Origin: Phallusia mammillata
Lineage: Eukaryota
Length of the DNA stretch: 64,000 bases
NCBI GenBank assembly: GCA_965637545.1
Contig: OZ281494.1
Span: 16,492,001 to 16,556,000, forward strand
Direction of reading: 5' to 3'
Positions 21,001 to 24,000 of this stretch are shown here, piece by piece (positions within the stretch are counted from its first letter, which is position 1; the number at the start of each line of letters is the position of its first letter). Made by a program: the position numbers.

Positions 21001-24000
21001 AATCGGGAAACAGCCGCAAAAACCTCGCGGTTGAAAATACGCCAATGTCAAAATTTTTACAAAAAAGGACATAATATTGTCAGACGCAGCAGCCGCACCC
21101 TTAAAAAGACTACGTTATAAACAGTTAGGTACATCCCAAGTCTTGAGTTAGGTACATCCCAAGTCTAATGTTTTATACCAACTTTGAATACAACAGGGTA
21201 GATGAATGTAACCCACCTGAACAGACTTCACGCAGTAAAGCGATTATTGTTTTCGAATTAGACAACAAGTTTTGGGTATCGTTTTCCGTTTCTCGGAAAT
21301 ATGTATACAGCTTACTGTTTTTTTCATTGTTTGGATTTCATTCCAGCAAATCATCGTACAAAATGATATTCAATATCATATAGCAATATCAGTTATTGCA
21401 CCTGAGGTTAAAATAATAGTGATAAAAATACATTACAAATATGTCAGCGTTCTATGATCCGCAACATCACAACGGCATTATAACGAAGTTTTACGCTTTC
21501 TTTATCTTTGTACGAGCTTTTATCAACTTTTACGAAACTGTTACTTACGACTGACTCGTGATCGTGACTATGCTCGATTCTGCCTCACAAGCAACAACGC
21601 AACCCTCTGTAATTGTAAAATAAGTGTATTTCATAATCCGTAGCCAGCGGATGCTTGAAGTCCGTGATCGCGGCAGTGTACACTTCTTCATTAGTGTGAC
21701 AAGGTAGTTCACTAGCTGTTAGTAAGTCGACTCGACTTCTTGTGTTAGGTGTTAAAATTTGTTACTTGTTACAAAAGATTTTGTTGTTTTAACTTAAATC
21801 AACTCCGATTTGTGCAAATTGCAAACTTTATTATTAGTGTGTTTTGTTGTTTAAAAACTACTGGTGTTTGTAATTTGTATTAATTTAAAACATGGTTCGG
21901 TATTGTTCCTAAATTTTTGCATAACATGCATTTTACTTTGGTACATGCAATGTATAGTCAACACCAATGTAATCCAAGGTGTTTAATGTTACAGTTTGTT
22001 AACGAATAACATGCAGTATAAGGGTGTTCAATTTCTGCCAGTGCAAGTTTTACATAGATGTTACACGTCCATGCAAACTGCCAGTGGTAATGGGTTGGAA
22101 ACACCTGAAAGATTTCATCCTAAAGCAGCACCCCCAAGCCAGACTGACATTTCAACAATTAAAACTTTTGTTGCACATTGCAAAAACATGATGGTTTTGT
22201 CAGGTGCTGGACTTTCCACTGAGTCAGGTGTACCCGACTATCGATCCAAAGGTGTAGGGTTATATGACCGCATGAATCACAAACCAATGGAACATCATGA
22301 GTTTGTACGAAGCTCTGCTAGTCGAAAAAAGTATTGGGCACGAAATTACATTGGTTGGAAACGTCTTTCATCCCTTAAACCTAATATTGCCCATACAAAA
22401 CTAAGTCAGCTGGAAAAGGATGGGAAAATTAGTTGGCATGTAACACAAAATGTTGATAGTTTGTGTTCAAAAGCAGGTTCCAAAAAACTTACTGAATTAC
22501 ATGGGTGTGTTGAAAGAGTGACCTGTTTAAGCTGCAGAAATATTTCAACACGCAAGGAGCTGCAAAAAAGATTTCAAGAAAATAACAGTACCTGGTCTGC
22601 TAATGTATTGGGTTTTGGACCAGATGCAGATGTTTTTATTAAGGATGAAGATGTCACAAATTTTCATGTGCCAGCTTGTTTAAAATGTGGAGGTGTTTTA
22701 AAACCTGATGTCACATTTTTTGGAGACAATGTACCTGGTCATATTGTAGAATTTGTTTATGACAAGCTGCAAAAAAGTGATGGTTTGTTAGTTGTAGGTT
22801 CATCATTGCAGGTTTGGTCAGGATATAGATTTGTTTCTCGGGCATCACACTGTGGTATTCCAATTGCTATCATTAATATTGGTGCCACAAGAGCTGATGA
22901 CATAACCTCTGTAAAAGTAAATGCTTTATGTACACAAGTTTTAAAACATATTTTGTGACAAGTGTTTTTGTTTTTATCAAGTGCCATGACAAAATCTTAT
23001 GTAGCGTTTAAAATAAAGTTTCAATTTTTTTGCTTTAAACAATGACTTCTGTAACATTGCAGGTAATTGTAGTAGGTCTGTAATGTAAAAGGGTTTGTTA
23101 GTTAGATTTATTTGAATATAACTATCGGAATGGAGGAATCTACACCAGCCAACAACAATAACTGTGTTTCAGTGGAAGTGCCAAAGCTTGAAAACGACAG
23201 TATACCTCAAGTCAAAGTTACACAGGTAAATGTTAACAACTGGATGTCAAGTGGTTTCAGCATGTTTTGTATATTTTATTGGCTATTTGTCATTTTAAAG
23301 GTGACAAAGTTAAGGGGTGAGGAGACAGAGATTGTTGTGAGCAGCGGAGGAGAAGATGAAGAGGTTTGTATGCTTTGTGTTTCATGTGACTTTTTTGATA
23401 AAAAACTTTTAAACCATTGTTTTGGTTGAAAACGAAAGCTCAATAACATAACATCTGTAGATGTTTTTTTAGGGTTGTGTTTTGGTACTTTATGCGCATT
23501 TTTGCTCAATGTATATAATGCCTATTATTAAGTTGACCTTTAAACTTTGAATATTCTTACTAAATTTGTTAATTTTTGATGTTTGGTAACTTAGAATTGT
23601 ATTGCCACAATGATATATAATTTAGTGTATGTTTGTAGTGTTTTTTAACACATTAAATATCAAACCTTACCTGGTATTAAACATGAGTTTTTTACTTTAA
23701 CCAGAGTTGCTATAAAATTGAAAAGTTGTCTAAAATGTAAAGGTTGTTTAGTTGGTAGTTAATTTCATCCCATGAACATGAACATAAAGATGTTAAAATT
23801 GTGTATAATGTTTCAAATAGCTACATGGGCCATTGGCCTATTACATAATTTTTCCCCTGTTATCCAAATGTTTTTTCCAACGTAATTGATAAAATTGCTG
23901 CATTTTTATCAATTTCCCTCATGTATTAGCTCTGTAATATGCCTATGTCGTCAACTGGTAACAAGGCGTACCTCAAAAATTACTAGGGGAAATGACAAAA

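What the first reader, a model, noticed from the sequence alone, without database searches (positions are those of the whole stretch)
21722..23130. SIRT4-LARP6: candidate trans-spliced operon or shared first exon
Seen: the intronless SIRT4 CDS ends at 22958, AATAAA is at 23012, a TTGCAG acceptor is at 23062 and the LARP6 ATG is at 23130, so only 171 bp separate the ORFs and there is no CpG-rich promoter-like stretch between them. A single upstream donor (GTAAGT, 21722) precedes both acceptors (21994 and 23062). Established: ascidian operons are resolved by SL trans-splicing, have almost no intercistronic DNA and are enriched in single-exon genes. Inference: either a dicistronic unit, or SIRT4 sits in LARP6 intron 1 and competes for one leader exon. 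Either model co-regulates a mitochondrial sirtuin with an mRNA-binding translational regulator.
Basis: partly seen in the sequence, partly recalled or inferred. Interest (0 to 1): 0.65.

Follow-up and report, generated by a model that had tools for sequence, protein, structure and literature searches.

The report
Likely SIRT4–LARP6 two-gene operon
An intact one-exon SIRT4 gene sits 171 bases upstream of LARP6 on the same strand, an arrangement that looks like an ordinary sea-squirt-type two-gene operon but cannot be proven from DNA alone.

Summary
Every coordinate in the finding is correct. The genes are real. The 315-aa ORF matches a solved Sirt4 over its full length (E 7.7e-102). Single LARP6 exons match LARP6 La and RRM structures.

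The splice and poly(A) motifs are no more than chance gives in this AT-rich DNA. Two things are not chance:
- The same-strand gap between the coding regions is only 171 nt.
- One CpG-depleted domain starts at about 21900 and runs unbroken through SIRT4, the gap and LARP6 to about 27000. The 500 nt before the ATG has CpG o/e 0.25 for LARP6, against 1.12 (SIRT4), 0.89 (INTS2) and 0.96 (claudin-like ORF).

A single-exon 5' gene, a multi-exon downstream gene and no AATAAA within 40 nt of the acceptor all fit published Ciona operons.

Best reading: one promoter upstream of 21722, with LARP6 released by spliced-leader trans-splicing at 23062/23063 (confidence 0.55). Main rival: LARP6 has its own promoter (0.25). 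A shared first exon as the main route is unlikely (0.07).

I had no transcript data, could not identify the organism, and could not check synteny. This is an ordinary new member of a known kind.

The parts
21600..21721 (+). Candidate non-coding leader exon and promoter-proximal DNA; the 5' limit is unknown.
   Evidence: CpG-normal (500 nt before the SIRT4 ATG: 17 CpG observed, 15.1 expected). A+T is 0.57, against 0.71 just downstream. Stop codons close all three frames within the last 30 nt (21697, 21705, 21713) and no ATG follows them, so this exon cannot code through the donor.
21722..21994 (+). 273-nt intron or outron, bounded by GTAAGT (21722-27) and TTACAG (21989-94).
   Evidence: Read. 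A+T 0.707 and G+T 0.589, like the LARP6 introns (A+T 0.70-0.75). The donor scores 6/9, equal to two real LARP6 donors. The acceptor has a pyrimidine fraction of 0.56, within the real-acceptor range of 0.39-0.72.
22011..22958 (+). SIRT4 coding sequence: one exon, 315 aa plus TGA.
   Evidence: Pfam SIR2 E 1.1e-47. PDB 5oj7 E 7.7e-102 over residues 37-315, next best 8.7e-31. 5OJ7 appears in the Sirt4 crystal-structure paper PMC5686155 (search listing). The GAG..STESG..PDYRS stretch, His164 and Cys172/175/223/226 align with 5oj7.
23012..23017 (+). AATAAA, 54 nt after the stop codon.
   Evidence: The only AATAAA in 21000-23500 on this strand. Its end lies 23 nt before CA 23040 and 45 nt before the G of AG 23062, so it is not within 40 nt of that acceptor.
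23018..23062 (+). T-rich tract ending in TTGCAG: candidate trans-splice acceptor for LARP6 and, on the Ciona pattern, the SIRT4 poly(A) addition point.
   Evidence: The only CAG among the 10 AG dinucleotides of the gap. Pyrimidine fraction 0.56. The sequence of 23018-23062 is shown.
23063..23129 (+). LARP6 5' leader, 67 nt. It holds an ATG-TAA mini-ORF at 23083, an in-frame TAG at 23103-05, and a spliced-leader-like stretch at 23106-23118.
   Evidence: G+T 0.64 and C 4.5%. Upstream ATGs are listed. The 10-nt SL core at 23109-18 is unique in the window. It is the second-best SL alignment locus in the window.
23130..23225 (+). LARP6 exon 1 (ATG, 32 codons). A model only; it has no homology support.
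   Evidence: Open frame starting after the TAG at 23103. Donor CAG|GTAAAT scores 8/9. No Pfam match at E<=1.
23301..23363 (+). LARP6 exon 2 (21 codons, acidic/Ser-rich). A model only.
   Evidence: Phase-0 boundaries with AG and GT. Not searched, because it is too short to be informative.
24154..24273 (+). LARP6 exon 3: start of the La motif.
   Evidence: Pfam La E 0.011, profile positions 3-16. Phase 0.
24420..24578 (+). LARP6 exon 4: La motif.
   Evidence: PDB LARP6 chains 9ngx 8.4e-17 and 2mtf 1e-16, against LARP7 1.8e-4. Pfam La E 5.8e-09 at 36.1 bits, just under the 37.1 cut-off because the exon holds only part of the domain.
24982..25095 (+). LARP6 exon 5 (linker).
   Evidence: Phase-0 boundaries. 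No Pfam match.
25512..25673 (+). LARP6 exon 6: RRM.
   Evidence: The only PDB hit is 2mtg, La-related protein 6, E 7.9e-10.
30247..30455 (+). LARP6 last coding exon, ending in TAA at 30453-55.
   Evidence: Read. No Pfam match at E<=1.
21900..27000 (.). One continuous CpG-depleted domain covering SIRT4, the gap and the 5' two-thirds of LARP6.
   Evidence: CpG o/e is 0.32 for 21800-27000, against 1.08 for 11000-21700. The best single change point in 20000-24500 is at 21900 (1.01 to 0.31). 500-nt and 200-nt profiles are.

Best explanation
SIRT4 and LARP6 form one transcription unit of the Ciona operon type.

Proposed mechanism (inferred unless marked shown):
1. A promoter in the CpG-normal DNA just upstream of 21722 starts a pre-mRNA.
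2. The first 5' segment is removed. Either intron 21722-21994 is cis-spliced, or a spliced leader is added at 21995.
3. The single-exon SIRT4 ORF follows (shown).
4. The SIRT4 mRNA ends either at the G of AG 23062, as in published Ciona operons, or about 20 nt earlier under AATAAA 23012.
5. Polymerase runs on into LARP6.
6. LARP6 mRNA gets its capped 5' end by spliced-leader trans-splicing at 23062/23063, or less likely at 23105/23106. Translation starts at 23130.

A minor cis-spliced 21721-to-23063 isoform is compatible with this model.

Shown: gene identities, spacing, motif positions, CpG pattern. Inferred: single promoter, trans-splicing, the acceptor used, and that the organism is an SL-trans-splicing ascidian.
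For: 1. Two genuine genes lie on one strand with 171 nt between coding regions. SIRT4 needs at least about 70 nt of 3' UTR to include AATAAA. The space between the two mRNAs is therefore under 100 nt, which is the KH working definition of an operon. In the unbiased Ciona screen, 12 of 12 downstream genes of such pairs were SL trans-spliced.
2. The 5' gene has a single coding exon and the downstream gene has many exons. In 790 of 1,310 Ciona operons (60%) the 5'-most gene is single-exon.
3. No AATAAA or ATTAAA lies within 40 nt upstream of AG 23062. The same was true of 16 of 18 characterised Ciona operon boundaries.
4. CpG footprint. The window is bimodal in CpG o/e. The 500 nt before the ATG have o/e 1.12 (SIRT4), 0.89 (INTS2) and 0.96 (claudin-like ORF), but 0.25 for LARP6. 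That is 3 CpG observed against 12.0 expected, Poisson P = 0.002. The only step is at about 21900. In Ciona, gene bodies are methylated, while promoters and intergenic DNA are reported unmethylated and 'incompatible with DNA methylation' (passages of PMC3827831).
5. The leader exon cannot be coding, and composition switches from exon-like to intron-like exactly at 21722. Both fit a start of transcription upstream of SIRT4.
Against: 1. There is no transcript evidence of any kind: no SL junction, no dicistronic cDNA, no poly(A) site.
2. No tool identified the organism. The operon literature applies only if it trans-splices as Ciona does.
3. The acceptor motif itself is expected by chance 46-60% of the time. 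It is followed by a donor-like GTAATT.
4. AATAAA, then CA 23 nt later, then a G+T-rich stretch (0.64) looks like a conventional poly(A) site upstream of the acceptor. That would leave a spacer of about 20 nt. Only 44 of 1,172 predicted Ciona operons have a spacer longer than 1 bp.
5. The CpG argument has limits. Keller 2016 counts 2,252 Ciona genes with methylated body and methylated 'promoter', against 2,633 with methylated body and unmethylated promoter. A low-CpG upstream region therefore does not exclude a promoter. I found no paper relating operons to methylated domains; in PMC3827831 'operon' occurs only in the reference list.
6. A leader spliced at 23063 carries an AUG-stop mini-ORF at 23083.
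Confidence: 0.55

Rival explanations
1. Two independent genes that happen to be packed tightly. LARP6 has its own promoter inside the SIRT4 3' end or the gap. For example, the A/T-rich AATAAA region could act as a weak TATA-like element with initiation near CA 23040. The SIRT4 transcript ends conventionally.
For: - AATAAA, CA at +23 and a G+T-rich downstream stretch make a complete conventional poly(A) site before LARP6.
- Ciona promoters are reported to lack CpG islands and mostly lack TATA boxes, so a promoter need not be visible in the sequence.
- 2,252 Ciona genes are reported with methylated regions upstream of the annotated start.
- The organism is unidentified, so SL trans-splicing is assumed, not shown.
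Against: - In Ciona, same-strand pairs under 100 nt apart were rare (under 1.1%) among pairs whose downstream gene was not SL-tagged. All 12 of 12 unbiased candidates were trans-spliced.
- There is no CpG-normal footprint before LARP6, unlike the 3 other 5' ends measured in this window.
- At most about 90 nt is left for both a core promoter and the 5' UTR.
Confidence: 0.25
2. A shared first exon is the main route. A non-coding exon ending at 21721 is cis-spliced either to 21995 (SIRT4 mRNA) or to 23063 (LARP6 mRNA). The whole SIRT4 gene then lies in LARP6 intron 1 and no trans-splicing is needed.
For: - The only exact GTAAGT in 21000-23500 lies upstream of both acceptors.
- Composition changes at that point.
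- The exon is closed in all frames, and the TAG at 23103 blocks any N-terminal extension of LARP6. One non-coding leader could therefore serve both ORFs.
- The continuous CpG-depleted domain fits this model as well as it fits an operon.
- Ciona trans-splicing and cis-splicing are reported to compete at first acceptors.
Against: - GTAAGT is expected by chance with probability 0.08 (273 nt) to 0.34 (1.3 kb).
- The nearer acceptor at 21994 would normally be used first. After that, 23062 has no partner donor, and such unpaired acceptors are the ones that receive the SL (passage).
- Operons hold about one fifth of Ciona genes. I know of no comparable frequency for nested shared-exon pairs.
- No junction evidence exists.
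Confidence: 0.07

Closest known systems
Ciona intestinalis SL-resolved operons without intercistronic DNA (Satou 2006, PMC1488885; Satou 2008, PMC2760879)
   Same: - Same strand, with under 100 nt possible between the mRNAs.
- Dicistronic, as 1,079 of 1,310 operons are.
- A single-exon 5' gene with a multi-exon downstream gene.
- A CAG acceptor shortly before the downstream ATG.
- No AATAAA within 40 nt of that acceptor.
   Different: - No SL-tagged cDNA, poly(A) site or dicistronic cDNA is available here.
- An AATAAA 45-50 nt upstream plus a G+T-rich stretch suggests a possible conventional 3' end about 20 nt before the acceptor. That would give a short spacer, which is rare in Ciona (44 of 1,172 predicted operons).
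- The organism is not confirmed.
SL1-type operons of Caenorhabditis elegans, as described in Satou 2006
   Same: Little or no intercistronic sequence, resolved by the general SL, with a canonical AATAAA in the upstream cistron.
   Different: A different phylum and a different SL. Here the AATAAA sits further from the acceptor. Nothing could be tested here.
Oikopleura dioica operons, as quoted in Satou 2006
   Same: A tunicate in which one SL serves both monocistronic and operon genes, with short spacers of 23-30 nt. This would match a poly(A) site near 23040 and an acceptor at 23062.
   Different: Oikopleura upstream cistrons are said to lack AATAAA. The intron sizes and the CpG mosaic of this window were not compared with Oikopleura.
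Cholinergic gene locus (VAChT nested in the first intron of ChAT, with a shared non-coding first exon; unc-17/cha-1 in C. elegans). Recalled from memory; no call supports it.
   Same: An intronless ORF lies between a shared non-coding leader exon and the first coding exon of a second gene. This is the template for the shared-exon rival.
   Different: The two cholinergic genes act in one pathway, whereas SIRT4 and LARP6 have no known functional link. No junction evidence exists here.

Membership tests
Ciona-type SL-resolved operon | Neighbouring genes on the same strand. | tested here: met
   SIRT4 22011-22958 (+) and LARP6 23130-30455 (+).
Ciona-type SL-resolved operon | Distance between the mRNAs under 100 bp (KH definition) or 0 bp (KY-based definition). 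| tested here: inconclusive
   Only the 171-nt gap between coding regions is known. It bounds the mRNA gap to under about 100 nt if AATAAA 23012 is part of the SIRT4 mRNA. The true mRNA ends are unknown.
Ciona-type SL-resolved operon | The downstream gene's 5' end is an SL trans-splice acceptor. | not testable with these tools
   Acceptor-like CAG at 23062. No transcript data are available, and such a motif is expected by chance 46-60% of the time.
Ciona-type SL-resolved operon | The upstream mRNA is polyadenylated at the G of the acceptor AG. | not testable with these tools
   Needs 3' RACE or 3' ESTs. The sequence allows either 23062 or about 23040.
Ciona-type SL-resolved operon | A single promoter upstream of the first gene and no internal start. 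| tested here: inconclusive
   Indirect evidence only. The CpG-depleted domain is continuous from about 21900. The 500 nt upstream of LARP6 has o/e 0.25, against 0.89-1.12 at 3 other 5' ends.
Ciona-type SL-resolved operon | The organism performs SL trans-splicing (an ascidian). | not tested
   No tool names the organism. GC of 37.7%, the mosaic CpG pattern and compact genes are compatible with Ciona but not diagnostic. No SL RNA gene lies in the window.
Shared-first-exon nested gene pair | One donor joined alternatively to two acceptors (cDNA junctions 21721-21995 and 21721-23063). | not testable with these tools
   The donor and both acceptors exist as motifs. No cDNA is available.
Sirtuin 4 (class II mitochondrial sirtuin) | SIR2 catalytic domain with closest similarity to Sirt4 rather than other sirtuins. 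| tested here: met
   Pfam SIR2 1.1e-47. 5oj7 at 7.7e-102, against Sirt5 chains at about 3e-26 and Sirt3 at about 2e-22. 5OJ7 is cited in the Sirt4 structure paper (listing).
Sirtuin 4 (class II mitochondrial sirtuin) | Mitochondrial targeting. | not tested
   A 36-residue N-terminal extension precedes the aligned core. No targeting predictor was available.
LARP6 | A La motif followed by an RRM, both closest to LARP6. | tested here: met
   Exon 4 matches LARP6 at 8.4e-17 against LARP7 at 1.8e-4. Exon 6 matches only the LARP6 RRM chain 2mtg, 7.9e-10. Exons were searched one at a time.
LARP6 | C-terminal conserved motif (LSA/SUZ-C; the name is recalled). | tested here: inconclusive
   The last exon gives no Pfam match at E<=1.

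The most novel reading that the evidence does not exclude
The LARP6 leader carries a genome-encoded relic or mimic of the spliced leader. Positions 23106-23118 reproduce 13 of the first 14 letters of the published 16-nt Ciona SL, with one letter missing. The stretch starts directly after an AG and ends 12 nt before the ATG.

If this is real, there are two readings:
- A once trans-spliced LARP6 mRNA was copied back into the gene. This is recycling of processed mRNA, known to me only from dinoflagellates (recalled).
- LARP6 can make an SL-like 5' end without trans-splicing.

Either way, it would be a fossil record that this gene was SL trans-spliced.
Probability: 0.07. Interest if true: 0.55.

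Novelty: new member of a known kind. Interest (0 to 1): 0.2.

Why it matters
If confirmed, this adds one more dicistronic unit to the 1,300 or so already catalogued in Ciona. About a fifth of Ciona genes sit in such units, so it changes nothing conceptually.

Its practical value is for annotation. It says where the LARP6 promoter should be sought: upstream of SIRT4, not in the 171-nt gap. It also predicts that each transcript may yield either SIRT4 or LARP6 mRNA rather than both.

No functional link between a mitochondrial deacylase and an mRNA-binding protein is implied. Published Ciona operon partners are not tightly co-expressed.

Using CpG-depletion continuity as a DNA-only test for 'no internal promoter' may be useful for other candidate operons, but it is my own inference and untested.

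Tried and rejected
- **Rfam, whole window:** 0 matches at gathering scores.
- **SL RNA gene in the window:** none. The full 16-nt SL with up to 3 mismatches matches only 59579-59594 (expected 1.77 per window). That site is not followed by a GT donor.
- **Dispersed repeats or transposon at the locus:** self-BLAST gave 14 repeat pairs, none within 20000-31000.
- **Retrocopy origin of the intronless SIRT4:** no A-tract after the AATAAA and no flanking repeats. Neither supported nor excluded.
- **A 43-nt 5'-UTR intron from 23063 to 23105:** set aside. It is shorter than all six measured LARP6 introns (75-790 nt), and its TAG acceptor has a pyrimidine fraction of only 0.39.
- **Coding extension of SIRT4 or LARP6 from the leader exon:** excluded by stops in all frames and by the TAG at 23103.
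- **Pfam on LARP6 exon 1 and the last exon:** nothing at E<=1. The ATG at 23130 rests on the open frame and splice phases only.
- **Literature on this pair:** 'Ciona' + 'Larp6' gave 0 papers. 'Ciona' + 'Sirt4' gave 4 papers, none about gene arrangement judging by title and abstract start.
- **Papers not held:** Matsumoto 2010 (PMC2860165) and Suzuki 2007 (PMC1855171).
  - Orthologue sets and synteny in other tunicates.
  - Operon lists in supplements.
- **LARP6 model:** searched exon by exon. I did not build or search the joined coding sequence.
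Full report
**1. The observation**

- GTAAGT at 21722-27.
- An AG acceptor ending at 21994, 16 nt before the SIRT4 ATG at 22011.
- TGA at 22956-58.
- AATAAA at 23012-17.
- TTGCAG at 23057-62.
- A TAG at 23103-05, in frame with and upstream of the LARP6 ATG at 23130.

The gap between the coding regions is 171 nt. The window has no N and is 37.7% G+C.

**2. Gene identities**

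SIRT4:
- The 315-aa ORF has a SIR2 domain (E 1.1e-47).
- It aligns over residues 37-315 with PDB chain 5oj7 at E 7.7e-102. The next best hit is 8.7e-31, and Sirt5 and Sirt3 chains score about 1e-26 and 1e-22.
- 5OJ7 occurs in the paper on Sirtuin 4 crystal structures (PMC5686155; search listing only).
- The nucleotide-binding stretch, His164 and four cysteines (172, 175, 223, 226) are conserved in that alignment. Their roles are recalled from general sirtuin knowledge.

LARP6 was modelled by hand and searched exon by exon. I did not build or search the joined coding sequence.
- Exon 24420-24578 matches LARP6 La-motif chains at 8.4e-17 and 1e-16, against 1.8e-4 for LARP7.
- Exon 25512-25673 matches only the LARP6 RRM chain 2mtg (7.9e-10).
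- Exon 24154-24273 gives a weak La match (E 0.011).
- Exons 1 and 2 (23130-23225 and 23301-23363) have no homology support. They rest on an open frame that starts after the TAG at 23103 and on phase-0 GT/AG boundaries.

The neighbours show that the unit can hold only these two genes:
- Upstream lies a claudin/PMP22-like first exon on the minus strand at 20304-20714. This is a lead from Atlas features only, score 0.90-0.91.
- Downstream lies a convergent INTS2, with one 1,038-aa ORF at 31872-34988 and a C-terminal exon.

**3. Is it more than chance?**

The motifs are not:
- A CAG preceded by at least 55% pyrimidines occurs 5.4 times per kb on both strands. One or more is expected in 171 nt with probability 0.60.
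- Exact TTGCAG: 0.08 in 171 nt.
- AATAAA within 100 nt: 0.13.
- GTAAGT: 0.08 within 273 nt, or 0.34 within the 1.3-kb spacer.

'A single upstream donor' is true only for the exact hexamer. By a 9-position consensus, 21722 scores 6/9. That equals two of the six real LARP6 donors. Sites at 20887, 21704, 21979, 22917 and 23063 score 7-8/9. The acceptor at 23062 is therefore followed by a donor-like CAG|GTAATT.

Three things are not chance:
- The tight same-strand spacing of two genuine genes.
- A change of composition exactly at 21722. A+T is 0.57 before it and 0.71 after it, and the LARP6 introns are 0.70-0.75.
- The CpG pattern described next.

**4. The CpG footprint**

CpG observed/expected is bimodal in this window. 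In 700-nt windows the modes lie near 0.2-0.3 and 0.9-1.0 (500-nt profile).
- A CpG-normal domain (o/e 1.08, 11000-21700) ends at a best change point of 21900.
- A depleted domain (o/e 0.32, 21800-27000) then runs through SIRT4, the gap and the first two-thirds of LARP6.

CpG in the 500 nt before each ATG:

| Gene | CpG observed | CpG expected | o/e |
|---|---|---|---|
| SIRT4 | 17 | 15.1 | 1.12 |
| INTS2 | 12 | 13.4 | 0.89 |
| Claudin-like ORF | 15 | 15.7 | 0.96 |
| LARP6 | 3 | 12.0 | 0.25 |

For LARP6, the Poisson probability of 3 or fewer given 12 is 0.002.

Passages of PMC3827831 state the following for Ciona:
- Gene bodies are almost fully methylated.
- Promoters and intergenic DNA are unmethylated.
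- Short unmethylated promoters of about 500 bp are detectable.
- A promoter inserted into a methylated intron stayed unmethylated from about 800 bp upstream to 1 kb downstream of its start.

From this I infer that a germline-active LARP6 promoter at the gap should have left a CpG-normal patch, and none is there.

This inference has limits:
- It is my own. In that paper 'operon' occurs only in the reference list.
- PMC4776710 counts 2,252 Ciona genes with methylated body and methylated 500-bp 'promoter', against 2,633 with unmethylated promoter. Annotated starts of trans-spliced genes may inflate the first number; that is also my inference.

Ciona is reported to lack CpG islands, and its promoter classes do not differ in CpG content (PMC4691747).

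**5. Fit to published operons**

From named sections and passages of PMC1488885:
- Ciona operons are same-strand neighbours without intercistronic DNA.
- Poly(A) of the upstream mRNA is added at the G of the downstream acceptor AG.
- 16 of 18 boundaries lack AATAAA within 40 nt upstream.
- 12 of 12 downstream genes from an unbiased screen (under 100 nt apart) were SL trans-spliced.
- Such short distances were under 1.1% in the control groups.

From section 10 of PMC2760879:
- 1,310 operons were defined by under 100 bp, and 1,079 of them are dicistronic.
- In 790 (60%) the 5'-most gene is single-exon.

From PMC7986045: 1,128 of 1,172 predicted Ciona operons have at most 1 bp between genes.

From PMC6836712: the KY gene models were curated so that upstream operon genes end in AG.

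The present pair fits on strand, spacing, exon pattern and the lack of a hexamer within 40 nt of AG 23062. The end of AATAAA is 45 nt away.

It departs in one respect. AATAAA, a CA 23 nt later, and a G+T-rich (0.64), C-poor stretch at 23063-23129 form a plausible conventional poly(A) site about 20 nt before the acceptor. That would leave a short spacer.

**6. Mechanism and its rivals**

Best reading (confidence 0.55): one promoter upstream of 21722.
- The leader exon is non-coding, with stops in all three frames in its last 30 nt.
- The 273-nt segment 21722-21994 is removed, either by cis-splicing or as an outron when the SL is added at 21995. PMC11155486 reports that Ciona trans-splicing occurs at the first acceptor with or without a paired donor, and that 9,850 of 12,397 non-operonic genes have trans-splice sites.
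- LARP6 is released by SL addition at 23063.
- The leader then holds an AUG-stop mini-ORF at 23083. An acceptor at 23105 would avoid it but is a poor TAG site with a pyrimidine fraction of 0.39.

Rival 1 (0.25): an independent LARP6 promoter in the SIRT4 3' end.

Rival 2 (0.07): cis-splicing of 21721 to 23063 as the main route. This could also exist as a minor isoform alongside an operon.

The remaining probability covers the case that the organism does not trans-splice at all. No tool identified the organism.

Satou 2006 found that operon partners are neither tightly coordinated nor mutually exclusive. The paper also argues that a spacer-less operon transcript may give one mRNA or the other.

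**7. A curiosity**

The 10-letter core of the published SL occurs once in the window, at 23109-23118 inside the LARP6 leader.
- 0.51 copies are expected per window, and 39 of 100 shuffles have at least one.
- With one missing letter the match extends to 23106-23118, directly after AG 23104-05.
- It is the second-best SL alignment locus on both strands of the window.
- The best locus, at 59579, is not followed by a donor.

The chance that such a hit falls in this 67-nt leader is about 1e-3, but I noticed it after the fact. It may be coincidence. If it is not, it could be a relic of a trans-spliced LARP6 mRNA copied back into the gene. It matters in practice, because it can confuse SL-read calling at this locus.

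**8. Novelty and what stayed unchecked**

Operons of this kind are well known, so this is at most a new member.
- No paper in the searched library holds both 'Ciona' and 'Larp6'. The 4 papers with 'Ciona' and 'Sirt4' do not concern gene order, judging by title and abstract start.
- The pair may already be in database operon lists or in supplements, which were closed.
- Two papers were not held.

Noticed in passing
window 23106-23118: A spliced-leader-like stretch lies in the LARP6 5' leader. It matches 13 of the first 14 letters of the published 16-nt Ciona SL, with one letter missing. It starts right after AG 23104-05 and ends 12 nt before the ATG. The exact 10-nt core is unique in the window, and it is the second-best SL alignment locus. 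No donor follows it, so it is not an SL RNA gene.
   Followed up: partly
window 27000-30500: The 3' third of LARP6 (two long introns of about 1.7 and 1.3 kb, plus the last two coding exons) is CpG-normal (o/e 1.04). The rest of the gene is depleted (0.32), as are the 3' UTR and INTS2 (0.25). Self-BLAST found no repeat there. The cause is unknown; it could be an unmethylated island or an inserted element.
   Followed up: partly
window 31212-34988 (minus strand): INTS2 is encoded almost entirely by one 1,038-aa open frame (Pfam INTS2, 1050.7 bits) plus a C-terminal exon at 31212-31574. It converges on LARP6. Both 3' ends share one CpG-depleted domain, like the tail-to-tail pairs described in PMC3827831.
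   Followed up: partly
window 23226-23300: LARP6 intron 1 is 75 nt long, in frame and free of stop codons. Retaining it would keep the reading frame and insert 25 mostly hydrophobic residues (ORF 23112-23429).
   Followed up: no
window 20304-20714 (minus strand): A 136-aa ORF with no Pfam match. The protein Atlas places it near claudin/PMP22-type tetraspan proteins (scores 0.90-0.91, a lead only). It diverges from SIRT4 across a 1.3-kb CpG-normal spacer that may act as a bidirectional promoter region.
   Followed up: partly
window 22917: A donor-like AAA|GTAAAT (7/9) sits in phase 0 inside the SIRT4 coding sequence, 42 nt before the stop. If joined to 23063, it would replace the last 13 residues with 6 others. 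There is no evidence that it is used.
   Followed up: no
window 1-20000 and 45000-58000: Other genes seen by Pfam on long ORFs:
- DUF4698 C-terminus, 3676-4008 (+).
- PHD finger 7431-7763 and SAM domain 6899-7366 (-).
- THAP domain, 10481-10882 (-).
- CUB 52368-52913 and calcium-binding EGF 57202-57693 (-).
. Short dispersed repeats cluster in 11600-18200 and at 50109-50308.
   Followed up: no
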